The notes below the pieces were generated by a model. The model worked only from the letters and a program-made list of their open reading frames with translations. It had not been told where the DNA came from and searched no databases. A DNA stretch of 64,000 bases from a virus: the IMG/VR virus record IMGVR_UViG_3300029763_000196; one strand, 5' to 3'. This document shows, piece after piece, positions 11,630 to 28,502 of this stretch. The translations under genes and the position numbers were made by a program. The stretch's first letter is position 1. Every line of letters begins with the position of its first letter.

Positions 11630-11702
11630 AACTTAGTCGTTTGCTTTATAATTGTATAGAATGCGTCATACGGCAGACATTTAACAGCCGTATGACATAC
11701 AC

Positions 11703-12155
11703 TTATTTAACTATCATCCAATCGTTAGCAAGCATATCTGTCTGTGATGCAAGCCAACCATTTACAACGGTGCCATCGGCAGCTTTCATACATAAGTATG
11801 CAGTAAATTTGATTTTATCAATTTCCGAATCTCCATAATTGTTGGCTATCCATTTTTTGAATGATTCGGGAAGTGATTTAACATGATTAACAACCTTTTC
11901 CGTTGATAAACAATCTTCAGGACGCATGAATATGAACATACCCTTACCGTTCCATCCTTTACGAGTAACGAGATGCCCTCGTTTGAGAGATTCAAGTGCT
12001 TGCCCAAAGGTTCCCGTTTCTTCTCCAAGTAATTCACATTCCATTGCCCCTTGTCCGTAAATGGTTTCAATAGTTCCTTTGTAGCTTGCAAGTTCAGGGA
12101 ACTCAGCTACAACCCCTGCTGCATATTCGGCAGCCTTTTCGTCTAATGTCTTCAT
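11703..12155 (-). CDS. DUF2829-domain protein (Tad2-like anti-Thoeris sponge candidate) with an extra N-terminal region
   Basis: LESLKRGHLVTRKGWNGKGMFIF ... DGTVVNGWLASQTDMLANDWMIV matches the DUF2829 signature (KRxGWNGKGMYI...W..W). Confidence 0.5.
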   Translation of the reverse strand: MKTLDEKAAEYAAGVVAEFPELASYKGTIETIYGQGAMECELLGEETGTFGQALESLKRGHLVTRKGWNGKGMFIFMRPEDCLSTEKVVNHVKSLPESFKKWIANNYGDSEIDKIKFTAYLCMKAADGTVVNGWLASQTDMLANDWMIVK

Positions 12156-12272
12156 TCTAATAAATGTTTTTGAGTAAACATTGAATCTGCTTCTTGAAAC
12201 TGTTTTGTGAAGCGGTTCTTTTTATAAACTCTTGGTGCAGTACATCCAGTTAACAAAACAAGGAGTGTAAAG

Positions 12273-12280
12273 ATAATAAG
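12273..12280. repeat. left copy of 8-bp flanking direct repeat ATAATAAG (putative target-site duplication of the Mu-like insertion)
   Basis: identical octamer at 47970..47977 immediately outside the inverted terminal transposase-site repeats. Confidence 0.5.
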
Positions 12281-12286
12281 GGGGAT

Positions 12287-12767
12287 AAAACGAAATGCGA
12301 TAAATTGAGTTATTCCGCATAAACGGTAATAGTTTTGATATACAAATAGTTATGTACGAATAGGAGAGGGGAGAGAGAAAAAACGAAAAGTTTACTCTGC
12401 TTTACTTTGGCTTTACTTTGGACTTTACTTTGAACGGTTTGAACGCCCGTCAACTTTACATGGCAATGGAGATGTGATAAACGGAGTAGAGTAGGGTAGG
12501 AGAAATGCGGTACATGGGCTGCGAAATGCTTTATTTAGGCGTTTTGCAGCCCTTTTTGTGCTTTATAGATAGATTGGCTTCCTACTTTTGAATAGTTGAA
12601 ATTTAGTGCTCAAAATAGCGAAAATAGGGATGGGGGAGGAGAGTGGCGATTTTAACGGGAATATTTCGTTTTTTGAGGATTGGATATGCAGTAGGATATG
12701 CGTTTGGGTATGCAAATTTGTCAAGAAAAAAACGAAATGTGTTGATTGGGTATGCGTTTGGATATGC
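12287..12767. promoter_or_regulatory. left-end region with transposase/repressor binding-site repeats
   Basis: AAAACGAAATGCGA (12287-12300), AAAAACGAAAAG (12377-12390), inverted ATTTCGTTTTTT (12663-12674), AAAAAACGAAATGTG (12725-12740); five GG(A/G)TATGC repeats (12682,12694,12706,12748,12760) spaced by CGTTTGG. Confidence 0.5.
12396..12433. repeat. tandem ~10-bp repeats CTTTACTTTG(G) x3.5
   Basis: gctttactttggctttactttggactttactttgaac seen directly. Confidence 0.6.
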
Positions 12768-12976
12768 AATTTAAGCAAAATTAAGATGGGTTGAATTATA
12801 CAAGTTACCATTTTACTACCCGTTTTTATGGCTTTATGTATTATTCAAGGGGGGAAAATACCATATAAAGAATAATGCAAATCAGCATATATGATAGAGT
12901 AATATGCTGATTTATAAAAAGGTATCTGGCAATTTCTGTTTTATTTGTGTTGAAAACGTGCGTGTGTCTCTTTTAT

Positions 12977-13633
12977 TTAGAACAATCTGTGCATACTTCC
13001 TAATACTGCGTATACTTTCTGTATCATGGAAATAGGAATGTCTTGCGGACTGTATTCCGGGCTTTTATTGGTGGGGATTAAGCGAATAAAATCTTTTTGG
13101 TCTGCTTTTCCTATTCGTTTAACAGTCCGATAGCTTTCTGTCACGATGGCATATATTTCTCCATAGGGGAGATATTGGACGGGATCGGTCATTTCTTTGA
13201 GGGCGATATAGTCTCCGTTGCTTAATTCGGGTTCCATAGAATGACCTGTAATATTACACCACACAACACCGGGTTTATTGTAAGGCTCAAAATTTATATA
13301 GTAATCCGGATTAATTGTTTGATCATTTAAAACGAGATCAAATCCACCGATAAAATCTACATTGTAGTAAGGTGCTCCCTTATATTCATAATTAATAGTC
13401 GGGAGTGATAGCGGCTGTGGGGTTTCCTTTAGCATAGAGCCTCGCCCTGTTATTAGCCATTCTAAATTGAGGTGAGGATAATTATCCGCAATAACGGAAA
13501 GCCATTTGCTTTGAATATCTGTTTTATTATTTATGGCTCGCCTAATCATGCCATCGCTCGCAGATATTGACTGTTCAAAAGATCTAACGCTAATCCCTTG
13601 ATTTTGTATAAATTGGCTAATTCGTTCAATCAT
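12977..13633 (-). CDS. CI/LexA-like repressor (XRE HTH + S24 peptidase domain) of the Mu-like phage
   Basis: N-terminal HTH ending LNLEWLITGRGSM; C-terminal GHSMEPEL...GDYIA...RIGK (Ser-Lys dyad peptidase S24 signature); leftward, adjacent to left end as in Mu c. Confidence 0.8.
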   Translation of the reverse strand: MIERISQFIQNQGISVRSFEQSISASDGMIRRAINNKTDIQSKWLSVIADNYPHLNLEWLITGRGSMLKETPQPLSLPTINYEYKGAPYYNVDFIGGFDLVLNDQTINPDYYINFEPYNKPGVVWCNITGHSMEPELSNGDYIALKEMTDPVQYLPYGEIYAIVTESYRTVKRIGKADQKDFIRLIPTNKSPEYSPQDIPISMIQKVYAVLGSMHRLF

Positions 13634-13783
13634 AATTTTATTCTTTCTGTGAAAATAATCACGATTTTGCTTTATATTGTGATAATTATCCTATATATTT
13701 GCATCACCGTATTAATATTACCGGCTGTAAAGGTAGTGAAAACGGCTGATATGACAATGAATAACTTTTAAAAACAATGTGAT

Positions 13784-13969
13784 ATGAGAAAGCGAATAGT
13801 AGTAGATCGTGGTGAGATCAAGAAAATCTCAAAGGATTTTAAAGTCACGAGCAAAGCCGTTTGGGAGGCACTGGTTTATCGCAGTAACAGCAGCAAGGCG
13901 AGGCTTATCCGTAAGGTAGCCCTTGAACGTGGAGGTGTTGAAATCGGAGATCAAAAGGAGGCGGTATGA
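13784..13969 (+). CDS. Ner/Cro-like small DNA-binding protein
   Basis: 61 aa, HTH-like ISKDFKVTSKAVWEAL, divergent from repressor, first gene of rightward early operon. Confidence 0.45.
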   Translation: MRKRIVVDRGEIKKISKDFKVTSKAVWEALVYRSNSSKARLIRKVALERGGVEIGDQKEAV

Positions 13970-14184
13970 AAAAGGTGTTGTTACTTCTCTTTGGAGATGA
14001 GTTCAGGGAGTATTTCTCTTTGACTGCGAGGCAAAAGTTTTACGTGTGGTATTTCTGCCTAAGTTTATGCTTTTTATGTATAACTGATGATAGTCCGATA
14101 TGGGCTATTATAGTGGTAGTCTTGAATTTTGCCAATGCCGCCCGCCTGATTAAAAAAGTACCATTAAATATAAAGGAGGATTAA
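13966..14184 (+). CDS. small membrane protein
   Basis: hydrophobic segments VLLLLFG and WAIIVVVLNFANAA. Confidence 0.3.
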   Translation: MKKVLLLLFGDEFREYFSLTARQKFYVWYFCLSLCFLCITDDSPIWAIIVVVLNFANAARLIKKVPLNIKED

Positions 14185-14186
14185 TC

Positions 14187-14594
14187 ATGAAAAGAGTATT
14201 TCACGTTAAAGAAGATGACACTATCAGAAAATTGTTTGAAGATCTGCTTGATGCGGAAAGAACCTTGTACTCCGCAAGATGCCCCGAAATCGTCAACGAG
14301 ATGGATGACACGCCCTCTCTATGGCTGTCTTTACAACCTCCTTATGTTCCCTCTCAATCTCGTTCACGGCGTTTTTTAGAGCTTGATGAAGAGCCTTACT
14401 TCCGCTTGGCCGGCCTTTTGGAATTGACGTATAGAAACTCAACTCCACCGGAACTCCAAACGCGGGGGTTAACCATCCGGATTCGGGATAATAAGGCTTA
14501 CTTCTGTATCTCAGGTTCAATCTCCTTAGCTGATTTGCAAACGCTGTGCGAACGTTGTCAGGCTGGGCAATCTCCTGATCAATGTAAAAAGTGA
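14187..14594 (+). CDS. hypothetical protein
   Basis: 135-aa ORF with SD (aaggagga) upstream. Confidence 0.4.
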   Translation: MKRVFHVKEDDTIRKLFEDLLDAERTLYSARCPEIVNEMDDTPSLWLSLQPPYVPSQSRSRRFLELDEEPYFRLAGLLELTYRNSTPPELQTRGLTIRIRDNKAYFCISGSISLADLQTLCERCQAGQSPDQCKK

Positions 14595-14649
14595 TACAAA
14601 ATGATGTTTCCATGATGATAACGATTTGATTTTGCAAAGGTAAGAAAAA

Positions 14650-14692
14650 TCCCGGACGGTCTTTTGAGGTGGTTCGACTCCGCCTCCGGGGA
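14650..14692 (+). other. tRNA-like acceptor/T-arm minihelix (tRNA 3'-half-like fragment) just upstream of the transposase gene
   Basis: TCCCGGA...GGTGG TTCGACT CCGCC TCCGGGG A : T-loop consensus GGTTCGACTCC flanked by complementary acceptor-like arms; no D or anticodon arm. Confidence 0.3.
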
Positions 14693-14708
14693 CAAAGTTT
14701 AAAAAGGT

Positions 14709-16781
14709 ATGGAGTATTTTGGAAAAACAGTATGTGCAACTTACGATGAATTAACATCAGGAAATGATCCGGTAATAAAACCCGGAACATTGAAGTCCTT
14801 GCAATACAGGAAACGTGTTGATGTTATTTCTCGTGGAGGCGGTGGAGGAAACATCGCCTTATATGTCTATTCCTCCCTACCTGAACGTTACCGGATCCGC
14901 TTTGAGCAAAAGTATGGTGATCCGGTGGAGCTAATCAAAGAGCAGTGCATGAAAGACAGGCTTAAAATAGATGATGCCGCCCGAACATTCTTTGAGGATT
15001 ACCGGTATGACAAGGCCGGCGAGATGGTGAGCCTTACCGAAAGGAAAAAAGAGGAATACACCATAAACGCCTCGGTACTGAACGAGTTGATATCGATCCT
15101 GAATGACCGGGAGGGCTATCGCAAGGCTTTGGGTGGAAGTACAAAGAAAGTATGGGAAACGATTATCGGAACGGCAGACCGCCTCCGTGATTCTTATGGC
15201 CACACACTGCCTGAAAACGCCGCCCGGCTGAAAGACAAGATAAACCAATACAAGAAAGAGGGTTACTCCTGCCTGATCAGCAAGAAAATGGGGAATGACA
15301 ATACCCTGAAAATAACCGAGGAAGCCGGTAACATGATTATAGCGTTAAAGCGGAGTAGCGTTCCCGTTTATACTGATGCTCAAATATTCGTGGAATTCAA
15401 CCGGATTGCAGAAGAGAAAGGCTGGAAGCAGCTCCGGAGCATTCAGAGCCTCCGTGGGTTCCTGAACCGTCCTGACATCGAACCGTTGTGGTACGATGCC
15501 GTTCACGGGGAGCTGAAAGCCCACCAGCGTTACAGCCGCAAGAATAAAACCGAGCTTCCTTCGATGCGTGACTCCCTATGGTACGGTGACGGTACGAAAA
15601 TCAATTTGTATTACAAGGATTACGACAAAGACGGTAAGCTGGTGGTTCGTACCACTCAGGTTTACGAGGTCATCGATGCTTATTCGGAGGTATTTTTGGG
15701 ATACCATATTTCAGACAGCGAGGACTACGAAGCGCAATATAATGCCTACCGCATGGCCGTTCAGGTATCAGGTCATAAGCCTTACGAGCTGGTGCATGAT
15801 AATCAGGGAGGCCACAAAAAGCTGCAAAACAGCAAATTCTTTGACAAGATTGTCGGCCATGTTCACAGAACCACGGCTCCATACAGCGGGCAGTCCAAAA
15901 CGATAGAGAGTGTTTTCGGACGTTTTCAGGCCGAGGTTCTGCACAAGGATTGGAGGTTCACCGGCCAAAATATCACCACCAAAAAGGACACGAGCCGCCC
16001 GAATTTAGAGCGTATCGAGGCGAACAAGGATAAACTTTACACTCTGGCCGAACTGAAAGCGGCATACGCTGCCGTCCGGAAAGAATGGAACGAAAGCAGG
16101 CATTTTGCTACCGGATTGAGCCGTATGGAAATGTACAAAAACAGCGTGAACCCTGATACCCCGGCGGTGGGTGTTCTCGACATGATCGAGATGTTTTGGG
16201 TGATGACGGACAAACCGTCCACTTATACTGACAACGGCCTGAAAATAACTATCAAGAAACGTGAGTTCACATACGAGGTGTACGAGGCCCCGGGTTTTCC
16301 CGATCACGAATTTCTCAGGAACAACAGGGGGCAAAAATTCTACACGATGTATGATCCTTATGACCATACCTCGGTACGGCTCTACAAGAAAGATAAGGCA
16401 GGAGAGCTGAGATTTGTACGGACGGCGGAGCCTTATATCGTTATCCACCGTAACATTCAGGAGCAGACCGAGGGCGAAATGGCCTTTATCCGCCGGAATA
16501 TCGAGGCGAACACGGAGGATCGCATCGAGCGTCAGGTGGGAGCCCGGATCATCGAGCAGGCGCACGGCGTGAGCATGGAACAACAGGGACTCAAACGTCC
16601 GAAACTGAAAGGTGTAAAGAAAGAAACGGAGCGTGAGATTGAACGCCGTGTCCGTCGGTACAGTCAGTATCCGGAGCAGCTCTCCGCCGGTAAGGTGACA
16701 AAACTGATAAGCAACATCACGTTTGACCAGCTGAATGGAGACATCCGCCTGAATGAAAAGAAAGTAGCAGGAAAATTATAA
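14709..16781 (+). CDS. MuA-like DDE transposase
   Basis: 690 aa; catalytic-core-like LWYGDGT ... VIDAYS ... SKTIESVFGRFQ spacing of Mu/rve-type DDE transposases; followed by MuB-like ATPase. Confidence 0.85.
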   Translation: MEYFGKTVCATYDELTSGNDPVIKPGTLKSLQYRKRVDVISRGGGGGNIALYVYSSLPERYRIRFEQKYGDPVELIKEQCMKDRLKIDDAARTFFEDYRYDKAGEMVSLTERKKEEYTINASVLNELISILNDREGYRKALGGSTKKVWETIIGTADRLRDSYGHTLPENAARLKDKINQYKKEGYSCLISKKMGNDNTLKITEEAGNMIIALKRSSVPVYTDAQIFVEFNRIAEEKGWKQLRSIQSLRGFLNRPDIEPLWYDAVHGELKAHQRYSRKNKTELPSMRDSLWYGDGTKINLYYKDYDKDGKLVVRTTQVYEVIDAYSEVFLGYHISDSEDYEAQYNAYRMAVQVSGHKPYELVHDNQGGHKKLQNSKFFDKIVGHVHRTTAPYSGQSKTIESVFGRFQAEVLHKDWRFTGQNITTKKDTSRPNLERIEANKDKLYTLAELKAAYAAVRKEWNESRHFATGLSRMEMYKNSVNPDTPAVGVLDMIEMFWVMTDKPSTYTDNGLKITIKKREFTYEVYEAPGFPDHEFLRNNRGQKFYTMYDPYDHTSVRLYKKDKAGELRFVRTAEPYIVIHRNIQEQTEGEMAFIRRNIEANTEDRIERQVGARIIEQAHGVSMEQQGLKRPKLKGVKKETEREIERRVRRYSQYPEQLSAGKVTKLISNITFDQLNGDIRLNEKKVAGKL

Positions 16782-16792
16782 TTCAAAATAAA

Positions 16793-17674
16793 ATGAACAG
16801 TACAATGACACAGCAAGAGAAAGACAATATCCGTGATGTTCTCCGGGTATATGCAGCGAAGTATTCCAGCCAAAAAAAGGCTGCGGCGAGTTTGAACGGC
16901 GTGTCTGCCGGTACACTGAGTGCCGTGATTAACGGCAAGTACGAGAATATCAGCGATGATATGTTCCGTAATATCATCGCTCAGATTACTCCGGCAGCCG
17001 CAGCTACCGGTTGGCAGCTGGTGGAAACGAACTCCTTTCAGGAAATATGGTATGCCCTGAGCGATGCGCAGGAGTTTAAAAAAGTCCGCTGGATCGTGGG
17101 TGGTGCGGGATGCGGCAAAACAACGACAGCCACCATGTACGCACAAAAAAATCATGAGGTGTTCGTCATCCTTTGTGATGAGGATATGCGGAAAGGTGAT
17201 TTTGTCCGGGAGATCGCCCGTAAACTCGGTTTCAAGACTTGCGGGATGCGTATCCGTGAAATATTGGACTTGGCCATCGAGAGCATCATACAGATGGAAA
17301 ATCCGCTTTTGGTATTCGATGAGGGTGACAAGTTGAACGATAACGTGTTCCACTACTTTATCAACCTGTATAACCGGTTGGAGGGCAAATGCGGGATTAC
17401 TTTCTTATCCACTGATTACATCCAGCACCGTATCGATTGCGGTTTGAACCATAACCGGAAAGGGTATAACGAGATTTATTCCCGTATCGGGCGTAAGTTC
17501 TTTGAGCTGGAGCCAACCTCCTGCAATGATGTGTTTGCCATTTGTCAAGCCAACGGCCTGACGGACAAGAAACAGATCGCAAATGTGATCGATTTGACGG
17601 AGAAATCGGAGTTTGATTTGCGATGCGTGAAAGATGCCATTCACCGGGAGAAAAAGGTGGCGGCAGCGAAATAG
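16793..17674 (+). CDS. MuB-like AAA+ transposition ATPase (target DNA activator)
   Basis: Walker A WIVGGAGCGKTTT, Walker B LLVFDEGD, 293 aa, immediately downstream of transposase. Confidence 0.8.
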   Translation: MNSTMTQQEKDNIRDVLRVYAAKYSSQKKAAASLNGVSAGTLSAVINGKYENISDDMFRNIIAQITPAAAATGWQLVETNSFQEIWYALSDAQEFKKVRWIVGGAGCGKTTTATMYAQKNHEVFVILCDEDMRKGDFVREIARKLGFKTCGMRIREILDLAIESIIQMENPLLVFDEGDKLNDNVFHYFINLYNRLEGKCGITFLSTDYIQHRIDCGLNHNRKGYNEIYSRIGRKFFELEPTSCNDVFAICQANGLTDKKQIANVIDLTEKSEFDLRCVKDAIHREKKVAAAK

Positions 17675-17731
17675 TATAAAAACCTGTTCAAATGCCGGTT
17701 GAACGGCGTTTGAACGTAATTCAAAAAGTAT

Positions 17732-18175
17732 ATGAAACAAATTGTTTTACCACTCGCAAGCCGGTTCCCTGTAGGCCATTTGAAAAAAGGCCAGATTACC
17801 GGCTTTCCTGAGAAAGTGATTAAAGGAACCAAGATCCACACGTTTCGTGAGGATCCGGGCAAATGGGCGTACAACGTGGAGCTTATCAACTCCCATGATG
17901 CGGAGCTATCTATCCGCCGGTGGATTGGCCGTCCTTATCACACTCCGCAGCTGGAGGTGAAAAGATTGAAGAAAATCGGTATCCAGCAGGTGCAGATGAC
18001 ATGGGAGTCCGATATCGAGCAGCCGACCGTTTTCATAGACGGGAAACGTATCCTGAACGTGGAGCAGCTGGCTGCTAATGACGGGATGACTCTCGATGAT
18101 TTCGTGAGCTGGTTTTTTAAGACCTCCGACACTTTCGAGGGAGTGATTATTCATTTTACAGATTTCAGATATTGA
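17732..18175 (+). CDS. hypothetical early protein
   Basis: 147-aa ORF. Confidence 0.4.
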   Translation: MKQIVLPLASRFPVGHLKKGQITGFPEKVIKGTKIHTFREDPGKWAYNVELINSHDAELSIRRWIGRPYHTPQLEVKRLKKIGIQQVQMTWESDIEQPTVFIDGKRILNVEQLAANDGMTLDDFVSWFFKTSDTFEGVIIHFTDFRY

Positions 18176-18178
18176 TTT

Positions 18179-18799
18179 ATGGCACGGGCATTATCGGTAA
18201 CAGAAGCAGTAAGCATGAAGAAAGAAACGCTCAAGCTGACAGGTGCATGGGCGGACGCTTTCGGAGAGCCTGAACGGATTGGCGTTTGGTTTATTTGGGG
18301 CAATAGTGGTAACGGGAAAAGCAGCTTTGTCATGCAGCTTTGTAAAGAGCTGGCAAAGTTCGGGCGGGTGGCTTATGACAGCCTCGAAGAGGGTGCGAGC
18401 CTTACCATGCAGAACACGCTCCGCCGTTTCAACATGGCCGAGGTAAACCGCCGTTTCCAGCTACTTGACTGCGAACCGATATCCGAGCTTAGTGAAAGGA
18501 TGGATAAACATAAAAGCCCCGATTTTTACGTCATCGACAGTTTTCAATATACCCAAATGAGCTATAAGGAGTACATCAAATTTAAGGAGGCGCACCGGAA
18601 TAAGCTGCTGATATTTATCTCCCATGCGGATGGACGGAACCCTGATGGCCGGAGCGCAAAGAAAGTGATGTATGATGCCGCCTTGAAAATTTACGTGGAG
18701 GGTTTCCGGGCTTTCTCGAAAGGCCGTTTTTTCGGCTCTGTAGGGCACTTTACTGTTTGGAATGAGGGTGCGATAAGATATTGGGGAGATAACGCTTAA
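18179..18799 (+). CDS. P-loop NTPase of unknown function
   Basis: Walker A GNSGNGKSS, Walker B-like FYVIDSF. Confidence 0.45.
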   Translation: MARALSVTEAVSMKKETLKLTGAWADAFGEPERIGVWFIWGNSGNGKSSFVMQLCKELAKFGRVAYDSLEEGASLTMQNTLRRFNMAEVNRRFQLLDCEPISELSERMDKHKSPDFYVIDSFQYTQMSYKEYIKFKEAHRNKLLIFISHADGRNPDGRSAKKVMYDAALKIYVEGFRAFSKGRFFGSVGHFTVWNEGAIRYWGDNA

Positions 18800-18810
18800 A
18801 ACGAACGGAA

Positions 18811-19038
18811 ATGAGCAAGAATAACCAAGTTATAACGATTTCGCCTCCCATGTTTATCGGGGAGGGAAACAGGAAAGAAAGTATCTCCAGCAAAGGCCAC
18901 CGGTGTAGCTATTGCCACGGTAACGGTTTCTTTTGGGGAGAGGAACAACGGGAACGGGTGAAAGTTGATTGCCCGGTCTGCAAAGGTAGCGGTAAACTCG
19001 ATGCCGTGATAACTATCGAGTGGAAACCTGCAAAATGA
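18811..19038 (+). CDS. small zinc-finger protein (DnaJ-type CxxCxGxG repeats)
   Basis: CSYCHGNG ... CPVCKGSG. Confidence 0.45.
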   Translation: MSKNNQVITISPPMFIGEGNRKESISSKGHRCSYCHGNGFFWGEEQRERVKVDCPVCKGSGKLDAVITIEWKPAK

Positions 19039-19044
19039 TATAGA

Positions 19045-19308
19045 ATGAGCTATATAGATTATACCAGAAGTTCTTCTAATTCTGCATACGAAATGACAGT
19101 GTGTATGACAAAAAAAGAATGCAAGACTTTGCTCCCTTTCTTTAGAACGGCGTATAAAAATATCAGGAAAAAATACGATAGGTATGAAGATATCCATGAA
19201 GGAGGAGAAGCAACGGAAAAACAGGAAAATCTACGAATGAAATACACGGAGGAACTTGGGGATTTGGAGAGTATTATATCAGAAATAGAAACAATTTTAA
19301 AACAGTGA
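19045..19308 (+). CDS. hypothetical protein
   Basis: 87-aa ORF in semi-essential early region. Confidence 0.3.
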   Translation: MSYIDYTRSSSNSAYEMTVCMTKKECKTLLPFFRTAYKNIRKKYDRYEDIHEGGEATEKQENLRMKYTEELGDLESIISEIETILKQ

Positions 19309-19311
19309 GCT

Positions 19312-19728
19312 ATGGGGTATGATTTGATTCCTAAAAAAAATGGTGTTGATAGTAAGCACGGAATGATATTCACTTGGCCGGTCATTTTAAAAGAAACTGG
19401 AGCCGGTTATCTGTTTGGATATGGAACGAATACATTTCAACCGGGAAAATATATATATGACGGTTCCCGTCTTGATGGCAGTCCGGTTAGTAACGATGGA
19501 TTTGATGTATCGAAGGAGGATGCGCTTATTATGGCAAGACTTTTTAAGGGATATGTCTTTGTAAAACGGGGGCTGATTGAAGAATGGGAGAAGATGTCTG
19601 AAAAGGAACAAACTTTAGCTAAATCATTGCTTGGTGAAAAAGCGGCTCCTCCCTCTGAAGAATTTTTGCGGAAAGTAGAAATGTTGGCAGAGTTTTGTGA
19701 ACAGTCTGAAGGATTTAATATATGGTGA
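19312..19728 (+). CDS. hypothetical protein
   Basis: 138-aa ORF. Confidence 0.35.
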   Translation: MGYDLIPKKNGVDSKHGMIFTWPVILKETGAGYLFGYGTNTFQPGKYIYDGSRLDGSPVSNDGFDVSKEDALIMARLFKGYVFVKRGLIEEWEKMSEKEQTLAKSLLGEKAAPPSEEFLRKVEMLAEFCEQSEGFNIW

Positions 19729-19737
19729 AATCTGAAT

Positions 19738-19989
19738 ATGGATTATAACAGAATGGAAATAAACAAGGAACTTTTTCAAATAGGCTTGCCGGTAGCCTCT
19801 TTAAGCACAGTCCTGATGAATTGGACTTGCTTTAACCGACCGGAGAAATTGCTGATCAGCCCGGCCAAGAAAGATGATTGGGCGGTGGTTGAACTCCGGA
19901 ACCCGGAGCTGGCCGCAGCTATCATCAAGGATGTGCCGGAGGCAATGGTAAAAGTAGTACAACAACCTGTAAAAGTCGTGCAAATATGA
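19738..19989 (+). CDS. hypothetical protein
   Basis: 83-aa ORF. Confidence 0.3.
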   Translation: MDYNRMEINKELFQIGLPVASLSTVLMNWTCFNRPEKLLISPAKKDDWAVVELRNPELAAAIIKDVPEAMVKVVQQPVKVVQI

Positions 19990-20255
19990 AAGCGTTATCA
20001 GCATTAAGACAGGTATTCAGCCTGAAAAAGAACGAGGAACTCGGCAGAAAGTTCTCTCCCGAAGAATTGAAACGTATTGTCGATGCCATGAAAGAGTATG
20101 CGGCATCCAAGCTGCAGGAGCAGCGAGCCATTTGTCAGCGTGAATTTGAGTTGGCCTATGACTCCGGCGAAAGTAATTTGGGGACGAACCCGGCCATTAC
20201 CGAATTGTACGTTCTGCAATCCCTAAAAGAGAGTGAAACCCCTGAACTTGATTGA
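19986..20255 (+). CDS. hypothetical protein
   Basis: 89-aa ORF, overlapping starts/stops with neighbours. Confidence 0.3.
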   Translation: MKALSALRQVFSLKKNEELGRKFSPEELKRIVDAMKEYAASKLQEQRAICQREFELAYDSGESNLGTNPAITELYVLQSLKESETPELD

Positions 20256-20680
20256 TTATGGCAAAGACAAACAGTTATTCACGTTTTTGGACGCTGCTGG
20301 CGAAAATGCCCTGTTCTGACAGGGACGGTTTAAAGCTGCAGCTTGTATCCAGCTTTACGAATGGGCGGACGGACTCACTGAGAGAAATGACTTTGAGTGA
20401 ATATAACTCGATGATACGGGAGATGGAGAAGCAGACCGGATCCAGCCGTCCGGTCAGTTACGAGGTTCTGAAAAAGAAACGCTCTGCCGTTCTCCACCAA
20501 ATGCAGTTGATGGGTATTGATACGGCAAATTGGGCGGCGGTGGATAACTTTTGTTTGGGCGTTCGTATCGCAGGAAAGAAATTCAGGGAGTTGTCCGCTG
20601 ATGATTTGGATGCGGTATTGCTCCGGATCCGCTCCATCCGGCAAAAGGATATGCAGAAAGCAAAGAAAGAACTCAATTAA
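20252..20680 (+). CDS. hypothetical protein
   Basis: 142-aa ORF. Confidence 0.35.
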   Translation: MIMAKTNSYSRFWTLLAKMPCSDRDGLKLQLVSSFTNGRTDSLREMTLSEYNSMIREMEKQTGSSRPVSYEVLKKKRSAVLHQMQLMGIDTANWAAVDNFCLGVRIAGKKFRELSADDLDAVLLRIRSIRQKDMQKAKKELN

Positions 20681-20711
20681 CTTATTTATAAACCATTTAA
20701 AATGTGATATT

Positions 20712-21380
20712 ATGGCACAGATTGAAGAAAAGCAGACTGTTGAAATGACGGCAGAGGAAAAGGCTCAATTCGAGGCTTTCCGTAAAGAAAAGGCCAAAAA
20801 AGAGACTCAGGAAAAGGCGAAAGCCGAACGTGAAACGTACCGCCAAATGGTGGATGATGAAGTGAACAGCGCAATCCCGGTACTCCTCTCCTTGAGTGAG
20901 GATATCAAGGAAACCAAAAAGACGGTGCTGGAGAACTTTAAGAGTATCCTTGACATGAAATGCGAGGTTCTGAAAGTCGTAAAGGATGACCAGCGCAGCC
21001 ATACCTTTACCAATTCGGAGGGAACCAAGCGCATCACTCTCGGAGTGTACGTGACGGACGGCTACCGTGACACGGTGGAGGACGGCATCGTGATCGTGAA
21101 AGAATACATCGAGAGCCTCGCCGACAATGCTAAAACGAAATCACTCGTGAGCATGGTTTTGAAGTTGCTGGCACGTGATGCCAAAGGCACGTTAAAAGCC
21201 AGTCGTATCGTCCAGCTTCGCAAAATTGCAGAGGAAAGCAACAATGACCGTTTCATGGAGGGTGTCCGCATCATTGAGGAGGCATACCAGCCAGCGATCA
21301 GCAAACAGTTTGTGAGAGCGGAAATGAAGAACGGGGACGGTATGTGGGTGACCATTCCTCTGGGTATGACAGAAGCATAA
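20712..21380 (+). CDS. DUF3164-like Mu-like prophage protein
   Basis: start taken at ATG 20712 (MAQIEEKQ), the track ORF from 20517 overlaps the previous gene; acidic coiled N-terminus then conserved core typical of DUF3164 in Mu-like phages (family recall, moderate). Confidence 0.4.
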   Translation: MAQIEEKQTVEMTAEEKAQFEAFRKEKAKKETQEKAKAERETYRQMVDDEVNSAIPVLLSLSEDIKETKKTVLENFKSILDMKCEVLKVVKDDQRSHTFTNSEGTKRITLGVYVTDGYRDTVEDGIVIVKEYIESLADNAKTKSLVSMVLKLLARDAKGTLKASRIVQLRKIAEESNNDRFMEGVRIIEEAYQPAISKQFVRAEMKNGDGMWVTIPLGMTEA

Positions 21381-21392
21381 GGAGGGACGGTC

Positions 21393-21677
21393 ATGATATA
21401 CAAAGTTCAATTCCAAATCCACCGCAGAGGTTACCGCAAGCTCCGGCTTGAGGGTTTGTACGTGCCGGAAACGGGTGTCGAGATGTCGGTTCCTGAAATG
21501 AAACGTGACGTTACCGAGTTCATCAAACGCCAGCTTTCCAGCCGGAACAAGGAATTTGAGAATTTTCAGGTGGAACTGACGGTTTTCAAAAAGCTCAAAA
21601 CCGATTTCATGTATCACCCGAAATCAAGTGAAGAATTAACCGTAATAAAGGAGGAATCAGATGGAACAGACGAATAA
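21393..21677 (+). CDS. hypothetical protein
   Basis: 94-aa ORF. Confidence 0.3.
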   Translation: MIYKVQFQIHRRGYRKLRLEGLYVPETGVEMSVPEMKRDVTEFIKRQLSSRNKEFENFQVELTVFKKLKTDFMYHPKSSEELTVIKEESDGTDE

Positions 21678-21903
21678 TGCGAAAGCCCGGTATATTCCCA
21701 CCCGTGTGGCTGTATGCAAGCGTTGCGAGGGAAAAGGCGTTGTATTCGAGTACAGCGATGAGAACAGGACAAAGGTATCCGGATCCTGCCAATGTCCGAC
21801 CTGCCTCGGATCCGGCAGAGTGAAAGTGACCAGCTCGGTGATAACCACTATAAAGCCGTTCGTTCCGGGTAAGGATGACAAAGAGGGTATGCTTGCAATG
21901 TAA
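21661..21903 (+). CDS. small zinc-finger protein (CxxCxGxG x2)
   Basis: CKRCEGKG ... CPTCLGSG. Confidence 0.4.
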   Translation: MEQTNNAKARYIPTRVAVCKRCEGKGVVFEYSDENRTKVSGSCQCPTCLGSGRVKVTSSVITTIKPFVPGKDDKEGMLAM

Positions 21904-21925
21904 AAGCCCTTTAATCAATAATAAA

Positions 21926-21962
21926 AGTCCGCTGAAATCCTAATTTTCAGCAGACTTTTTTC
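21926..21962 (+). terminator. rho-independent terminator ending the rightward early operon
   Basis: AGTCCGCTGAAA / TTTCAGCAGACT stem (1 mismatch) followed by TTTTTT. Confidence 0.5.
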
Positions 21963-22010
21963 GTACTATGGTGCAAATAATGTACCTTTGTATTAAGTAA
22001 TCAAATCAAT

Positions 22011-22358
22011 ATGCAGGAGCAGCTCGTAATACCGTTTTTTTGCCCGGAAATAGAGAAAGCCGGTAACCGCCGCAGAACACGCACGGTTGCCTCCTCCGAT
22101 GCTGCCATCACCTCCCGCCGTGACCGCCTCGAAAAGCGGAACCGCATCATGACCGCCCGTTATTACTATTGGACTGAGATCAAACGCCGCCGCTTCGATG
22201 ACGTGCTGAGAATCCTTTCCGATAACGAGTTCTTTGTCGAAGAGCGAACCATCAGCAACACGCTGGTGGAACAGGATGATTTTTACAATGAACTCCTGCG
22301 TTCCAAAGCATCCACCCGCAAGCTCAAAGCGATGTTTCCCGGCTTTGATTGGAACTAA
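22011..22358 (+). CDS. hypothetical protein
   Basis: 115-aa ORF. Confidence 0.3.
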   Translation: MQEQLVIPFFCPEIEKAGNRRRTRTVASSDAAITSRRDRLEKRNRIMTARYYYWTEIKRRRFDDVLRILSDNEFFVEERTISNTLVEQDDFYNELLRSKASTRKLKAMFPGFDWN

Positions 22359-22786
22359 TCCATAAACTCGGTTTCATAAATCACGTTATAGACTTTCAGA
22401 CCGTCCGCTCTTTTTTCCGGCGCACCCCGGAGGCGGCGCATCGGGTTGAAAAGGTTCCCCCCGTTCCACCATTGCAAAGCCTCGTGTATCTTATCCAACG
22501 TGTCCATGCAGGAGAGAGCGTGTTCCCTGACAAGTTTAGGGGCTGCCGCATTTGTACTCCCTCCGGCTTGAAAGGCCACCCTGAGTTGTATTTGCGCCTT
22601 TATCTTTTGCCGTCCACCCATGTGGGTTTCGCAGGACGGGTAAGATATATCTATCAGGCAGCACGGGAAAGCCACAGCAGGCCGCTCTCCCGTGTTAAGT
22701 TGTCCCTCCTCGGCATCTATCCACCGGAGCCCGGGTACTTCTGTTTTCAGCCGGTCACAAACGGCAATAAAAATTTCTTTGTTCAT
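22355..22786 (-). CDS. hypothetical virion/morphogenesis protein
   Basis: 143-aa ORF at the end of the leftward head operon. Confidence 0.3.
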   Translation of the reverse strand: MNKEIFIAVCDRLKTEVPGLRWIDAEEGQLNTGERPAVAFPCCLIDISYPSCETHMGGRQKIKAQIQLRVAFQAGGSTNAAAPKLVREHALSCMDTLDKIHEALQWWNGGNLFNPMRRLRGAPEKRADGLKVYNVIYETEFMD

Positions 22787-22788
22787 AG

Positions 22789-23334
22789 CTATTCATTGTT
22801 AAGTGAGTCAATATATCCCTCTATCCGTGCGTGTATCTGCTCGTTCAATTCTTCGGAATCTCCCATGAATTCACGTTTCGGGATGTTAGTTTTCCGGGTG
22901 TGCGCCTTGACCGGTACATCTTTCCGTTTTGTTTTCCGGGTGTGTGCCGGTACGGGTACTATACCTTTGAATCCCTCGTTGTGTACCTGAGCGTAATCTA
23001 CCTTTTCATTCCCTGCAGAGATAACCACCCGCTGGGGAGTTATCACCGCCGGTCTGATACTGTTCACCAGCGCACCGGAGTCAATCAGCAGGGAACCGGT
23101 TGTTTTCGGTACTTTTGCCGGAGTCCACGGGTTCCCGTCAAATGCTTTCTTCTTGAAAGCTGATTTATAGTATTCCGTGGCCGTTTCCGCCACGATTTCT
23201 GCCGCATCGGAGATTATCTCCTCCGGGAGCGATTGCAGATAATTATTTAATTCTTTGATATTCATATTGAAATAATTTTGTATATTTGCTTCCGTAAGCA
23301 TATCGCTCCGGGGATGAATCGAATATGCCAACAC
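22789..23334 (-). CDS. Mu G-like virion morphogenesis protein
   Basis: position after portal/F gene and weak family resemblance; contains internal duplicated peptide P.(P/K)AHTRKT. Confidence 0.4.
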   Translation of the reverse strand: MLAYSIHPRSDMLTEANIQNYFNMNIKELNNYLQSLPEEIISDAAEIVAETATEYYKSAFKKKAFDGNPWTPAKVPKTTGSLLIDSGALVNSIRPAVITPQRVVISAGNEKVDYAQVHNEGFKGIVPVPAHTRKTKRKDVPVKAHTRKTNIPKREFMGDSEELNEQIHARIEGYIDSLNNE

Positions 23335-23427
23335 CTGACGGATGACGGGGGCATCAAAAAGTCCGGGCTTTATACGGCGGAGCGGGATGTTAATCCGTAT
23401 ATAAAAGGAGGTTCTCAGAGCCTCCTT

Positions 23428-25962
23428 TTACTTTTTGATAAGCAGCCCACGGCGATATCTCCATCGTGGATCTATCTTTCTGCTCCTGCGGCCTTTCACC
23501 TTGATGTTGGCGTTTTGTTCTATCTCGAACCATGTCGTGACCTGATAGAGCGTTCCGTTCTTGACCTCGCAAACCACGTTAATCACCTTATCCTCGTAAA
23601 ACTTGATAAAGTTCAGGTTGTCGAACTTCTTTTGATAGTCGTTTATCCATACCTCGTCCGGGTTTTTAAGCACGTCCGGGATGCACTCCACGAGAGGAAC
23701 ACGAGCCTCCTCGTATTTCTTTGTGGTGTGGCGTTTGAACACCTCCTCCGTAAGTTGCACCTTCCGGCCTTTGTAGTCATCCATCACCTGATGCGAATCC
23801 CTCCACTGGTTCGGATCCCCGGCAAACACCGGTGCTTTTTCGGTCGCTGCCGCCGCTTTCTTTCCAAAGGACTCCAGCCCGTAATCATTATAATGCAGGT
23901 CACCCAGCAAGGAGGCGGCTTTATCGGGAAACTTGCGGATATAATGCTGGTTCTTGGAAAACACCTCAGCCGTTTCTCCCCGGTTTGAATCCCAGCCCTG
24001 AGCCTCGTTCATTTTCCATTCACTCGTACCGAGGTATTCATCGACAATGGCACGCATGGCGTTGATGTCTATACCCTCTACCTCGTGTTTCATGAGCGGA
24101 ACCACCCGGCAACGGCATTTCCAGCCATTGGGCGGGAATATCTTTTTCCACCGTGGATCATTGGCCGGTAATATCACCCCGTCCAGCTTCCGGTGTTCCT
24201 CCCTTACCTTTTCATCCCCGGCAGTGACATATTTCCAATAAGGGAACATTTTCGTTTTTCCCATGAGCCGGTGGTAATTGCTGGCGGACTCCGCCGTTAG
24301 TACCGCCGTTTCGTATTCCGTCTTTTGCCACGTTTTATTGAACGTGCCACATATCTGCTCTGCTTTTTTGGAGAACTCCTGAAAATTACCGCTCTCCCTG
24401 AACGCCTTGTTCAGCTCCTGAATTTCCGCCAGCGTCTTACCGGCGGAGAAATGAAACAGGTTCATCTCCAAAGCGGTGATAAAAGCGTCATCCTGCAGGC
24501 CGTATGCGAATCTTACATCCGCATGGTTCATTGAACGTTTGAACGCACTTTGAACACCGCTCAAAAAGTCGGTAGCAATAAAGGAGAACAACTCCGCATC
24601 GAACTTCCCGGTTTCGCCGTTTGCAATCCTTGCGGCCAGCTTTTCCGACATCGGAGCGTTATCATTCAGCCTGATGGGGGCTTTTCCAATGGATGCCCCG
24701 ACCTGCGGGGCTTGCACGAAAAAATCCCATAAGCGCATAAAGAAATTACGGTCTGCATTACTGATTGTGTCCTCCTCCGAATCCTCTCCTATATCGAACT
24801 GAGCGGCCTGAGAGGAGGCACGTTTTGCGACCGGCTCCCCGTCTTTAGGCACGGGAATCGAATATTTTTCATGCAGGTAGCTCTGCGGGATATCCATGAT
24901 GTCGGAGAGCTGCACCACCTCGGCAACGGAGAGCTGCTCCGCCGCTTTTGGGAAAATGAACTTTCCGCCAGCAACGGGATACCCTCTCGCCTCCAGCATG
25001 GGGAGTACCTTTTGGTTGAGGACACGCTGTACGTACCGGAGGTCAGATTTATTCTTTCCCTCCTCTACCTCCTTGTGAACCTCACCCAATGAACGTGCGC
25101 CTTTCTCTCCCTGTACGGTGGTCATGGTTTGTCCGAGGATAGTGATCAGCATCTCCTCGTTGTTGGCCTGCCGGAATTCGTTGTACGAGGATCCTGAACC
25201 CGTTCCGCCCTCTTTGGTTTCCACATCCGCCTCTTTTGGGATGACCACATACGGTGCGGATCCGGCTTTATCGAAAGCCTCCTCCAGCAGCTTGCGGCTC
25301 TCCGGATCATACGTGTTGTATTTACCGATGCGCTGGGGCATCCCGAAAAGTTCGATCCATTGTGACCAATCCCCAAAGCCTCCACGTTTGTAGATGGCAT
25401 AGGGAGCCGCCTTGAGTAACAAACCGAAATCCCGGTCTTTGCCGAGAATGAGCAGCTGTGAATCTCCCTCGTATGGTATGCCTATTTCGTCCGTGTCCTG
25501 CCGGAGGATTGTGCGGTTTTTCAGGTTGATATGCTTTGCCGGAATCGGTTCCACGTTGAAACCGTCATTAAAGGTCATTTCAATGCCTGAACGCCCGTAT
25601 ATTTTCTTTTTCAGGATTTCAGTCAGCAGATCCTCCCATGCGGTGGTGTCCATCAGGTCTGCGATCTCCTCCACTTCCTCCCCAGCCGCATTTTGGAAAG
25701 TAAGCTCCGAGTTCGTGACCGCATCGATACGCTTTTGAACGGCATCGCTCAAAACGCCGTCAATCATGATATCATCAAGCAGGTCATAAAGCTGCTTTGT
25801 TCGTCCATTGTCTGCAGAGGAGAGAGCCGTCCGCCAATTCCCCACGTCATACACTTTCCGCTGGGGAGCCTTGACTACGATCTGATGGATGACCAGCTGC
25901 TCCTTTGATTTTGCCCCGGTATTTGTCGTGGCCGTCTTTTTTTTCTTGTTCGCCATAGTCAT
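23428..25962 (-). CDS. portal protein (Mu gp29/DUF935-like) fused to MuF-like head morphogenesis domain, with ~270-aa C-terminal extension
   Basis: 844 aa; MuF/SPP1-gp7 motif EHRKLDGVILPANDPRWKKIFPPNGWKCRCRVVPL around residue 560; downstream of large terminase. Confidence 0.65.
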   Translation of the reverse strand: MTMANKKKKTATTNTGAKSKEQLVIHQIVVKAPQRKVYDVGNWRTALSSADNGRTKQLYDLLDDIMIDGVLSDAVQKRIDAVTNSELTFQNAAGEEVEEIADLMDTTAWEDLLTEILKKKIYGRSGIEMTFNDGFNVEPIPAKHINLKNRTILRQDTDEIGIPYEGDSQLLILGKDRDFGLLLKAAPYAIYKRGGFGDWSQWIELFGMPQRIGKYNTYDPESRKLLEEAFDKAGSAPYVVIPKEADVETKEGGTGSGSSYNEFRQANNEEMLITILGQTMTTVQGEKGARSLGEVHKEVEEGKNKSDLRYVQRVLNQKVLPMLEARGYPVAGGKFIFPKAAEQLSVAEVVQLSDIMDIPQSYLHEKYSIPVPKDGEPVAKRASSQAAQFDIGEDSEEDTISNADRNFFMRLWDFFVQAPQVGASIGKAPIRLNDNAPMSEKLAARIANGETGKFDAELFSFIATDFLSGVQSAFKRSMNHADVRFAYGLQDDAFITALEMNLFHFSAGKTLAEIQELNKAFRESGNFQEFSKKAEQICGTFNKTWQKTEYETAVLTAESASNYHRLMGKTKMFPYWKYVTAGDEKVREEHRKLDGVILPANDPRWKKIFPPNGWKCRCRVVPLMKHEVEGIDINAMRAIVDEYLGTSEWKMNEAQGWDSNRGETAEVFSKNQHYIRKFPDKAASLLGDLHYNDYGLESFGKKAAAATEKAPVFAGDPNQWRDSHQVMDDYKGRKVQLTEEVFKRHTTKKYEEARVPLVECIPDVLKNPDEVWINDYQKKFDNLNFIKFYEDKVINVVCEVKNGTLYQVTTWFEIEQNANIKVKGRRSRKIDPRWRYRRGLLIKK

Positions 25963-25965
25963 ATA

Positions 25966-26391
25966 TTAAAAATGTTGATTACGCTTGGGATTGCTCCCGT
26001 AGATATATTCACCTGCAGTATCCGGTTTCCCGTCACCGTCCTCGTCTATAATGGGGAGGTTAGGCTTAATGTCTGATTTCTGTACTTGCCTGAGCCATGC
26101 CACGGCACGCTCGTACCTATCCTGCCGGAGCTGCAGGTCAGTACCGGCATTGCATAGGTTCACGAAATGCCACACGGCTATGTCCTTTACAAAAATGAGC
26201 AGGAGGGCGTTTCTTTGGCTCCCTGTGGCCTCGAAAATCTTTTTGCGGTCATACGCACCAAGATATCCGTATGCTTCCTGTACGGCAGCGTCTATGGCTG
26301 CCGTGAGGATTGTTTCATCCTCCCTGCTGATAGCCTCTATATTCTCTTTATAGAGGTGCGTTTCCAATTCTTTGGGTGTGATAAATGCCAT
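25966..26391 (-). CDS. Mu gp36-like (DUF1320) head protein
   Basis: size and position between TerL and portal as in Mu-like phages. Confidence 0.35.
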   Translation of the reverse strand: MAFITPKELETHLYKENIEAISREDETILTAAIDAAVQEAYGYLGAYDRKKIFEATGSQRNALLLIFVKDIAVWHFVNLCNAGTDLQLRQDRYERAVAWLRQVQKSDIKPNLPIIDEDGDGKPDTAGEYIYGSNPKRNQHF

Positions 26392-26393
26392 GA

Positions 26394-28354: not shown

Positions 28355-28502
28355 AATTGTATCATTTTATAGCCCAAAGGTAAAGCCTTGCGGTGAGTGA
28401 AAATAATTGGTTTGTAATGGTTTACGTTTAAACTGAAATGGCTGCGGTTTAAGTTGAAACGGTTACAGGCCGATTTGTACAGCCCGTTTTTTACCCTGAA
28501 TT

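What the first reader, a model, noticed from the sequence alone, without database searches (positions are those of the whole stretch)
11703..12155. DUF2829 (Tad2-like) anti-Thoeris sponge candidate with extra N-terminal domain
The C-terminal two thirds match the DUF2829 signature (KRGhhVtRKGWNGKGMFIF ... W..W) of Tad2 proteins that sequester gcADPR signalling molecules. The ~55-aa N-terminal extension is not typical. The gene is the promoter-proximal gene downstream of the phage B insertion point.
Basis: established knowledge. Interest (0 to 1): 0.5.

Follow-up and report, generated by a model that had tools for sequence, protein, structure and literature searches.

The report
Known AcrIIA7/Tad2 immune-signal sponge gene
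This gene is a close relative of a phage protein (AcrIIA7/HgmTad2) already crystallised and shown to soak up bacterial immune alarm molecules, and its "extra" N-terminal part is that protein's published head domain, so the finding is correct but ordinary.

Summary
The ORF at 11703-12155 (minus strand, 150 aa) is real. It hits Pfam PF11195 (Tad2-like/DUF2829) at E=2.8e-24, 85.9 bits against a cut-off of 25. It is not a new variant. It aligns without gaps over its whole length, N-terminal part included, to the crystallised Phocaeicola dorei AcrIIA7 (PDB 9KZR, E=2.5e-76). Identity is 79% overall, 62% in the head and 87% in the core. The core is 86% identical to HgmTad2/meAcrIIA7 (8KBI). All 12 published gcADPR-pocket residues and all 9 cyclic-dinucleotide-pocket residues of HgmTad2 are identical. 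Four of five published tracrRNA-groove residues are identical and the fifth is R101K. The 48-aa extension is the published two-helix "head domain". It is the norm in this Bacteroidales clade: 108 of the 120 best database hits are 146-160 aa long. The exact protein occurs in 9,409 blocks of public assemblies. The gene lies in a counter-defence-rich leftward gene array of a LoVEphage-like Phocaeicola/Bacteroides prophage. A ~35.7-kb Mu-like phage (12277-47972) has inserted 121 bp upstream and decapitated the translationally coupled lipoprotein ORF. Most likely function: a tetrameric sponge for Thoeris (gcADPR) and CBASS (cGG/cGAMP) signals. RNA binding modulated by the head is possible. Low novelty.

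The parts
11703..12155 (-). Complete CDS (150 aa plus stop) of an AcrIIA7/HgmTad2-type Tad2 (DUF2829) protein
   Evidence: ORF. PF11195 at E=2.8e-24. PDB 9KZR at E=2.5e-76 over residues 1-149, and 8KBI at E=6e-59 over residues 49-149. Phocaeicola phage PV4-TP1 gp52 is 97.3% identical.
12012..12155 (-). Residues 1-48: acidic two-helix 'head domain' (10 D/E against 3 K/R)
   Evidence: Aligns 1:1 with the head (alpha1-alpha2) of pdAcrIIA7 9KZR at 30/48 identity (PMC13133391). AF2 secondary structure gives helices 4-18 and 20-38. Charge count. A phmmer search of 1.84 billion representatives finds the head only in front of DUF2829 cores.
11706..12011 (-). Residues 49-150: Tad2 core with the gcADPR pocket (W68 N69 G70 M123 A125 T129 V131 W134 L135 S137 T139 D140)
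   Evidence: All 12 HgmTad2 gcADPR-contact residues are identical, with a numbering offset of +47 (residue list from bioRxiv 10.1101/2023.11.15.567273).
11799..11921 (-). Residues 79-119: long insertion ('extended') domain that forms the cyclic-dinucleotide pocket (R78 P79 D81 L83 K93 S94 F117 T118 N132)
   Evidence: Same length as the HgmTad2 insertion (residues 32-72), with no gaps in the alignment to 8KBI. All 9 CDN-contact residues are identical.
11665..11696 (-). Stem-loop just after the stop codon (GTCATACGGC-N12-GCCGTATGAC), possibly a transcript-end or stabilising hairpin
   Evidence: RNA fold -19.9 kcal/mol, z=-4.56 against shuffles. The hairpin is kept, with one G-U change, in a different mobile element that carries the same cassette (L008). 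There is no U-tract, so terminator function is inferred only.
12152..12276 (-). Remnant of a 46-aa lipoprotein ORF whose stop overlaps the Tad2 ATG (ATGA). Its first ~7 codons were removed by the insertion.
   Evidence: Intact in relatives (L003 9864-10004, PF08139 LPAM_1 weak; PV4-TP1 gp53). Junction sequence. Some gene callers fuse the two ORFs (P0049, P0067).
12277..47972 (.). Inserted Mu-like transposable phage ('phage B', ~35.7 kb) that separates the gene from its native upstream genes
   Evidence: The flanks abut in PV4-TP1, with a 4-bp ATAA duplication. AAAACGAAATGCG motifs lie 10 nt from each tip in inverted orientation. It carries an S24 repressor at 12977-13633(-), an rve transposase at 14709-16781 and a MuB-like ATPase (PF09077) at 16793-17674.

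Best explanation
The gene encodes a full-length (head + core + insertion domain) ortholog of AcrIIA7/HgmTad2. It is carried in the early/accessory leftward gene array of a LoVEphage-like temperate phage of Phocaeicola/Bacteroides. By homology it should form a tetramer that works as a non-enzymatic sponge. Two pockets at one type of dimer interface would bind 1''-2'/1''-3' gcADPR, the Thoeris TIR signal. Two separate pockets built by the long insertion domain would bind cGG, 3',3'-cGAMP and related CBASS dinucleotides. Sequestering these signals would keep the ThsA-type and TIR-STING-type effectors off during infection or induction. In Bacteroidales the cGG/CBASS arm is probably the more relevant target. 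The 48-aa acidic head sits over the basic groove of the core. In the P. dorei ortholog it permits tracrRNA binding but blocks sgRNA binding and in-vitro Cas9 inhibition, so it most likely acts as a lid on the RNA-binding surface and is not needed for nucleotide binding. Shown here: homology, architecture, residue conservation and genomic context. Inferred from the published orthologs: tetramer formation, ligand binding and inhibition of immunity.
For: PF11195 at 85.9 bits. Gapless alignment to 9KZR (AcrIIA7, residues 1-149, E=2.5e-76) and to 8KBI (HgmTad2, E=6e-59). Identity is 79% overall, 87% in the core and 62% in the head. 12/12 gcADPR-pocket and 9/9 CDN-pocket residues are identical. RNA-groove residues K58, K66, K71 and K93 are identical and R101 is K. 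Head residues E6 and E10 are conserved. Residue lists and biochemistry come from bioRxiv 10.1101/2023.11.15.567273 and PMC13133391. The latter reports that full-length pdAcrIIA7 also binds cyclic signalling molecules. The neighbourhood is rich in counter-defence-type genes: N6/N4, Dam and C5 orphan methyltransferases, a PAPS-reductase (DndC/SspD-like), RtcB and a radical-SAM protein. The exact protein is found in 9,409 blocks of public assemblies, always in this phage context in the six places shown. That argues for a maintained, functional gene.
Against: No binding or infection data exist for this allele. Its head differs from the crystallised one at 18 of 48 positions, in the variable stretch 13-40. 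The host's defence repertoire is unknown, because the window holds no host DNA. Here the Mu-like insertion lies 121 bp upstream. It cuts the translationally coupled upstream ORF and the native upstream transcription unit, and no promoter was found in what remains. Expression in this particular lysogen is therefore uncertain. My AF2 model was poor (pLDDT 52) and adds nothing.
Confidence: 0.85

Rival explanations
1. Its main natural role is anti-CRISPR. The tetramer's basic groove captures the stem-loops of type II-A tracrRNA before Cas9 loading, as proposed for AcrIIA7, and nucleotide binding is secondary.
For: Four of five mutationally defined RNA-groove residues are identical and the fifth is a conservative R101K (PMC13133391). 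Full-length pdAcrIIA7 binds tracrRNA in vitro.
Against: Full-length pdAcrIIA7, which has this gene's architecture, did not inhibit SpyCas9 cleavage at 10 uM. Only head-deleted forms did (PMC13133391). An independent study found no anti-Cas9 activity for HgmTad2 in vitro or in vivo (bioRxiv 10.1101/2023.11.15.567273). AcrIIA7 did not bind a type II-C tracrRNA. Bacteroides-group Cas9 systems are, to my knowledge, mostly II-C; this was not tested here.
Confidence: 0.1
2. The gene is intact but functionally silenced in this genome. The Mu-like insertion is polar: it removed the native upstream transcription and the coupled upstream ORF. The LoVEphage-like prophage itself may also be crippled by a 35.7-kb insertion.
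For: The junction at 12276/12277 decapitates the lipoprotein ORF that overlaps the Tad2 start. No Bacteroides-type -7 motif (TAnnTTTG) occurs in the 121 bp of native sequence left. Sigma-70-like hits are no more frequent than in shuffles (13 found against 10.2 +/- 3.0 expected). Hairpins follow the phage B repressor gene on the way out. None of six other places carrying the identical protein has the insertion, and the junction is absent from GTDB representative genomes.
Against: The CDS has no lesion and is identical to the widespread allele, so any silencing is recent. Transcription out of the phage B left end, where the repressor gene points towards it, or from an unrecognised promoter cannot be excluded.
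Confidence: 0.3
3. It is a c-di-GMP sink that reprograms host physiology and is not an immune evasion factor.
For: HgmTad2 binds cGG with picomolar affinity, and the CDN pocket is fully conserved here.
Against: According to the HgmTad2 study, Bacteroides lack canonical diguanylate-cyclase signalling, and cGG there is a CBASS (CdnE to TIR-/TM-STING) signal. The gene sits among other counter-defence-type genes.
Confidence: 0.05

Closest known systems
pdAcrIIA7 from Phocaeicola dorei (PDB 9KZR; Lee & Park, Nat Commun 2026, PMC13133391)
   Same: Same length (150 aa) and the same three-part architecture: 48-aa two-helix head, core and extended/insertion domain. The alignment is gapless at E=2.5e-76 with 79% identity. 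Head residues E6 and E10 and groove residues K58, K66, K71 and K93 are conserved.
   Different: The head is a different allele: 18 of 48 residues differ, mostly at positions 13-40 (AEFPELASYKGTIETIYGQ against SRNKEAKECEGLIQTAYVL). There are 13 substitutions in the core, including R101K, mostly in the insertion domain.
HgmTad2 = meAcrIIA7 (PDB 8KBI-8KBM, 8WJC; bioRxiv 10.1101/2023.11.15.567273; originally AcrIIA7 from a human gut metagenomic library)
   Same: The core is 86% identical (87/101). The insertion has the same length. All 21 gcADPR and CDN contact residues are identical.
   Different: HgmTad2 is 103 aa and lacks the head; its Met sits at the position of G48 here. Natural headless homologs that start at exactly this position exist in other Bacteroidales (L021, L022).
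SptTad2 (8WJD), SPO1 Tad2 Gp34.65 (8SME, 8WJE) and MoTad2 (9EIB)
   Same: Same PF11195 fold family and the same gcADPR-pocket region. E-values are 3e-30, 5e-14 and 2e-13.
   Different: None has a head. SPO1 Tad2 has a short insertion and does not bind cyclic dinucleotides. MoTad2 binds His-ADPR and cUMP instead (bioRxiv 10.1101/2025.08.24.671296).
Phocaeicola phage PV4-TP1 gp52 (PQ571302.1) and the LoVEphage family (PMC8525569)
   Same: gp52 is 97.3% identical protein at the same position in the same phage backbone. It is annotated 'DUF2829 domain-containing protein'.
   Different: PV4-TP1 has the intact upstream lipoprotein ORF (gp53) and PAPS-reductase directly upstream, with no Mu-like insertion. 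The genes downstream of the Tad2 gene differ.

Membership tests
Pfam PF11195 Tad2-like (DUF2829) | HMM score above the curated gathering threshold | tested here: met
   85.9 bits against a cut-off of 25, E=2.8e-24, residues 49-149 covering profile positions 2-73 of 73.
Tad2 gcADPR sponges | Conserved gcADPR pocket (HgmTad2 W21 N22 G23 M76 A78 T82 V84 W87 L88 S90 T92 D93) | tested here: met
   12/12 identical at query positions 68-70, 123, 125, 129, 131, 134, 135, 137, 139 and 140 (residue list).
Tad2 gcADPR sponges | Binds gcADPR and inhibits Thoeris (ThsA activation, phage rescue) | not testable with these tools
   This needs biochemistry or infection assays. It has been shown for HgmTad2 and reported for full-length pdAcrIIA7.
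HgmTad2-type dual sponges (CBASS dinucleotide binding) | Long insertion between beta2 and beta5 (~41 aa) with CDN-pocket residues R31 P32 D34 L36 K46 S47 F70 T71 N85 | tested here: met
   The alignment across the insertion is gapless, and 9/9 residues are identical at query positions 78, 79, 81, 83, 93, 94, 117, 118 and 132.
AcrIIA7 (full-length, pdAcrIIA7 type) | N-terminal ~48-aa two-helix head domain preceding the core | tested here: met
   Residues 1-48 align 1:1 with the 9KZR head at 30/48 identity. Helices 4-18 and 20-38 are predicted. E6 and E10 are conserved.
AcrIIA7 (tracrRNA hijacker) | Basic groove residues K58, K66, K71, K93 and R101 required for RNA binding | tested here: met
   K58, K66, K71 and K93 are identical, and R101 is K, which keeps the charge (mutational data).
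AcrIIA7 (tracrRNA hijacker) | Inhibits type II-A Cas9 by sequestering tracrRNA | not testable with these tools
   The literature conflicts. Activity was seen only for head-less forms added before RNP assembly, and another group did not reproduce it.
Tad2/AcrIIA7 | Homotetramer | not tested
   Inferred from 79-87% identity to proteins that are tetramers in crystals and by MALS. My monomer model was of low confidence and no multimer prediction was run.

The most novel reading that the evidence does not exclude
The head may be an exchangeable regulatory lid, not a passive appendage. It is the fastest-evolving part of the protein, with at least three allelic types. It is found only on DUF2829 cores. 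It has been recombined onto a second, much more divergent core lineage that lacks the WLASQTD gcADPR motif (P0131, L038, L048). In one widespread allele it is split off by a Q35 stop followed by a restart at M38 (P0079, L008-L012). If phages toggle between headed and headless forms to switch the protein between nucleotide-sponge-only and RNA-binding/anti-Cas9 modes, this locus family would be a natural example of modular tuning of a multi-target anti-defence protein. A second possibility is that the Mu-like insertion rewires expression of the sponge in this lysogen.
Probability: 0.12. Interest if true: 0.45.

Novelty: already known. Interest (0 to 1): 0.15.

Why it matters
It adds little new biology. 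The protein family, its three-domain architecture, its structure and its ligands are published. The exact sequence is common in human-gut Phocaeicola/Bacteroides prophages. It is useful mainly as a correct annotation: a LoVEphage-type prophage carries an AcrIIA7/HgmTad2-type dual Thoeris/CBASS sponge within a block of counter-defence genes. Three side observations could inform the open dispute over whether AcrIIA7 is an anti-CRISPR and what the head domain does. These are the head allele diversity, the natural split and headless alleles, and the head shared between two core lineages.

Full report
OBSERVATION. The ORF list shows a 150-aa ATG-initiated ORF at 11703..12155 on the minus strand. 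Its residues 49-149 match Pfam PF11195 (Tad2-like, the former DUF2829) at E=2.8e-24, 85.9 bits against a gathering cut-off of 25. It also matches PHROGs 1048 and 872, both of unknown function, at E=1e-30 and 6e-25. The N-terminal extension is 48 residues.

WHAT IT IS. A phmmer search of PDB sequences gives a gapless alignment of residues 1-149 to chain 9KZR_A, 'AcrIIA7', at E=2.5e-76. Residues 49-149 align to 8KBI_A ('Inhibitor of Type II CRISPR-Cas system', i.e. HgmTad2) at E=6e-59. Next come SptTad2 (3e-30), SPO1 Tad2 Gp34.65 (5e-14) and MoTad2 (2e-13). Identity to 9KZR is 118/149 (79%), made up of 30/48 in the head and 88/101 in the core. Identity to the 8KBI core is 87/101.

9KZR is the full-length Phocaeicola dorei AcrIIA7 described by Lee & Park (Nat Commun 2026, PMC13133391). 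They divide it into a 48-residue two-helix 'head domain', a core and an extended domain, and show that it is a tetramer. The 'atypical N-terminal domain' of the finding is this published head.

LIGAND SITES. I took the contact residues from the HgmTad2 study (bioRxiv 10.1101/2023.11.15.567273) and mapped them with an offset of +47.
- All 12 gcADPR-pocket residues are identical: W21 N22 G23 M76 A78 T82 V84 W87 L88 S90 T92 D93.
- All 9 cyclic-dinucleotide-pocket residues are identical: R31 P32 D34 L36 K46 S47 F70 T71 N85.
- The insertion domain that builds the dinucleotide pocket has the same length.
- Of the five basic groove residues that Lee & Park mutated to abolish RNA binding, K58, K66, K71 and K93 are identical and R101 is K.
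- The conserved head residues E6 and E10 are present.

HOW IT MOST LIKELY WORKS. This section is inferred from the orthologs. The protein would form a tetramer that sequesters two gcADPR molecules (the Thoeris signal) and two cyclic dinucleotides. The dinucleotides are cGG at picomolar affinity, 3',3'-cGAMP, cUG and 3',2'-cGAMP, which are CBASS signals. They bind in independent pockets.

The HgmTad2 authors argue that cGG in Bacteroides is a CBASS (CdnE to TIR-/TM-STING) signal and not a housekeeping messenger. If so, the CBASS arm is probably the physiologically important one in this host. Lee & Park report that full-length pdAcrIIA7 also binds the cyclic signalling molecules.

The anti-CRISPR activity is disputed. 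Head-deleted and metagenomic headless forms bind sgRNA and tracrRNA and inhibit SpyCas9 only when added before RNP assembly. The full-length protein binds tracrRNA but did not inhibit cleavage at 10 uM. The HgmTad2 study found no Cas9 inhibition at all. For a headed protein in a Phocaeicola phage I rate anti-CRISPR as a minor rival.

The head here is strongly acidic (10 D/E against 3 K/R), whereas the core is net basic. This fits the published idea that the head covers the basic RNA groove.

HOW TYPICAL IS THE HEAD. Of the 120 best hits among 5.8 billion clustered proteins, 108 are 146-160 aa long, and the listed hits of that length cover 99-100% of the query. In this clade the headed form is the rule.

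Positions 1-12 are nearly invariant. Positions 13-37 are the most variable part of the protein (mean column entropy 1.16 against 0.26 for residues 49-78). They fall into at least three allelic types. The window carries 'type A' and the crystallised protein carries 'type B'.

In GTDB representative genomes, headed homologs occur in Phocaeicola, Bacteroides, Dysgonomonas and Butyricimonas. Most homologs outside the Bacteroidales match only from about residue 40-50 onward. Genuinely headless natural proteins start with Met exactly at position 48 (L021, L022), like the 103-aa metagenomic AcrIIA7.

A phmmer search with the head alone against 1.84 billion representatives finds it only on DUF2829 proteins or fragments of them. 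Other DUF2829 proteins carry unrelated N-terminal extensions. Examples are a Klebsiella N4-like phage protein and a Zn-ribbon-like extension in L019.

CONTEXT. Window 1-12276 and 47973-64000 are 96-99% identical to LoVEphage-type temperate phages of Bacteroides/Phocaeicola (MW660583, PQ571302 and others). This phage family was described in PMC8525569. PV4-TP1 gp52 is 97.3% identical and is annotated 'DUF2829 domain-containing protein'.

The exact window protein is indexed in 9,409 blocks of public assemblies, including complete genomes CP083677.1 and CP081920.1. In all six places shown, the gene order is PAPS-reductase, then a 46-aa lipoprotein ORF, then Tad2, then small ORFs and an N6/N4 methyltransferase, DUF551, a radical-SAM protein, Dam and RtcB. 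This is a block rich in counter-defence-type functions.

The lipoprotein ORF's stop overlaps the Tad2 start (ATGA), which suggests translational coupling.

In the window a 35.7-kb element (12277-47972) interrupts this array 121 bp upstream of the Tad2 start.
- The flanks abut in PV4-TP1, with a 4-bp ATAA duplication.
- Both tips carry AAAACGAAATGCG 10 nt from the end, in inverted orientation.
- The element encodes an S24-type repressor, an rve-family transposase and a MuB-like ATPase.

It is therefore a Mu-like transposable phage.

The insertion removes the first ~7 codons of the lipoprotein ORF. No promoter could be identified between the junction and the Tad2 start, so whether the gene is expressed in this lysogen is open. 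A stable hairpin (-19.9 kcal/mol, z=-4.6) follows the stop codon.

COMPARISON AND NOVELTY. Every defining feature that can be tested in silico is met for three assignments: PF11195, the HgmTad2-type dual sponge and the full-length pdAcrIIA7 architecture. Activities cannot be tested with these tools. The protein, its architecture and its mechanism are published, and the exact sequence is common. I rate it 'already known' with low interest.

SIDE OBSERVATIONS WORTH KEEPING.
(i) A widespread 'headless' 113-aa protein (P0079, found in 92 blocks) is in fact a split allele. The head-coding DNA is intact except for Q35 CAA to TAA, with the core restarting at M38. It sits in a different integrase/primase element. 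Homology to the window starts in the 3' part of the lipoprotein ORF and ends after the hairpin.
(ii) The same head is joined to a much more divergent DUF2829 core that lacks the WLASQTD motif (P0131, L038, L048). This core still scores as PF11195 (E=6.6e-12).

These observations suggest that the head is a shuffled module. They bear on the unresolved question of what it does.

LIMITS. The AF2 model was poor (pLDDT 52) and was not used for fold searching. The host defence repertoire could not be examined. The junction was not found in GTDB representatives.

Noticed in passing
window 12277-47972: A ~35.7-kb Mu-like transposable phage is inserted inside a LoVEphage-like prophage, i.e. a phage within a phage. 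It has a 4-bp ATAA target duplication and AAAACGAAATGCG motifs 10 nt from each tip in inverted orientation, with further copies inside both ends. It encodes an S24 repressor (12977-13633, minus strand), an rve transposase (14709-16781) and a MuB-like ATPase (16793-17674). It has almost no megablast match in the phage collection.
   Followed up: partly
L008 3890-4342 (also L009-L012): The 'headless' 113-aa Tad2 P0079 is a split allele. Codon Q35 is CAA to TAA, which gives a 34-aa head ORF followed by a core ORF restarting at M38. It lies in a different mobile element (tyrosine integrase, a 329-aa ORF and a 1019-aa DnaG/DUF3854 primase). The shared cassette runs from the 3' part of the lipoprotein ORF to the post-stop hairpin.
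   Followed up: partly
L038 2921-3364; L048 3001-3438; P0131: The same head domain plus helix alpha3 (up to ..ALESLKRG) is fused to a much more divergent DUF2829 core in which WLASQTD is replaced by YIPDWLD. The core still hits PF11195 at E=6.6e-12. This suggests head/core recombination and perhaps a different ligand specificity.
   Followed up: partly
window 12152-12276 (remnant); L003 9864-10004 (intact): A 46-aa lipoprotein-signal ORF (MKKILLICTLLVLLTGC...) overlaps the Tad2 start codon by ATGA in intact LoVEphages. Some gene callers fuse the two into proteins of 214-224 aa (P0049, P0067). Its function is unknown. It is truncated here by the insertion.
   Followed up: partly
window 11665-11696: A perfect 10-bp stem with a 12-nt loop lies directly after the Tad2 stop codon (-19.9 kcal/mol, z=-4.6). 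It has no U-tract. It is conserved with a G-U change in the unrelated element L008.
   Followed up: partly
window 12516-12552: A strong 16-bp hairpin with a T-tail on the plus strand lies inside the left end of the Mu-like phage, between its tip and the repressor gene. It could block transcription entering the phage from outside. A second AT-rich 12-bp inverted repeat (about 12877-12911) follows the repressor stop on the minus strand.
   Followed up: no
window 11438-11629 and 11187-11393 (minus strand): Two small ORFs lie downstream of Tad2: a 63-aa Cys/His-rich ORF with a weak DUF7455 hit, and a 68-aa ORF. They are absent from PV4-TP1, which has other small genes at this position. The segment between Tad2 and the methyltransferase is therefore a variable accessory slot.
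   Followed up: no
window 1-11200 and 48000-61300 (minus strand): The LoVEphage leftward array carries several counter-defence-type genes. These are N6/N4, Dam and C5 DNA methyltransferases, a PAPS-reductase with SspD/DndC/BrxP-like hits, RtcB RNA ligase, a radical-SAM protein and DUF551.
   Followed up: partly
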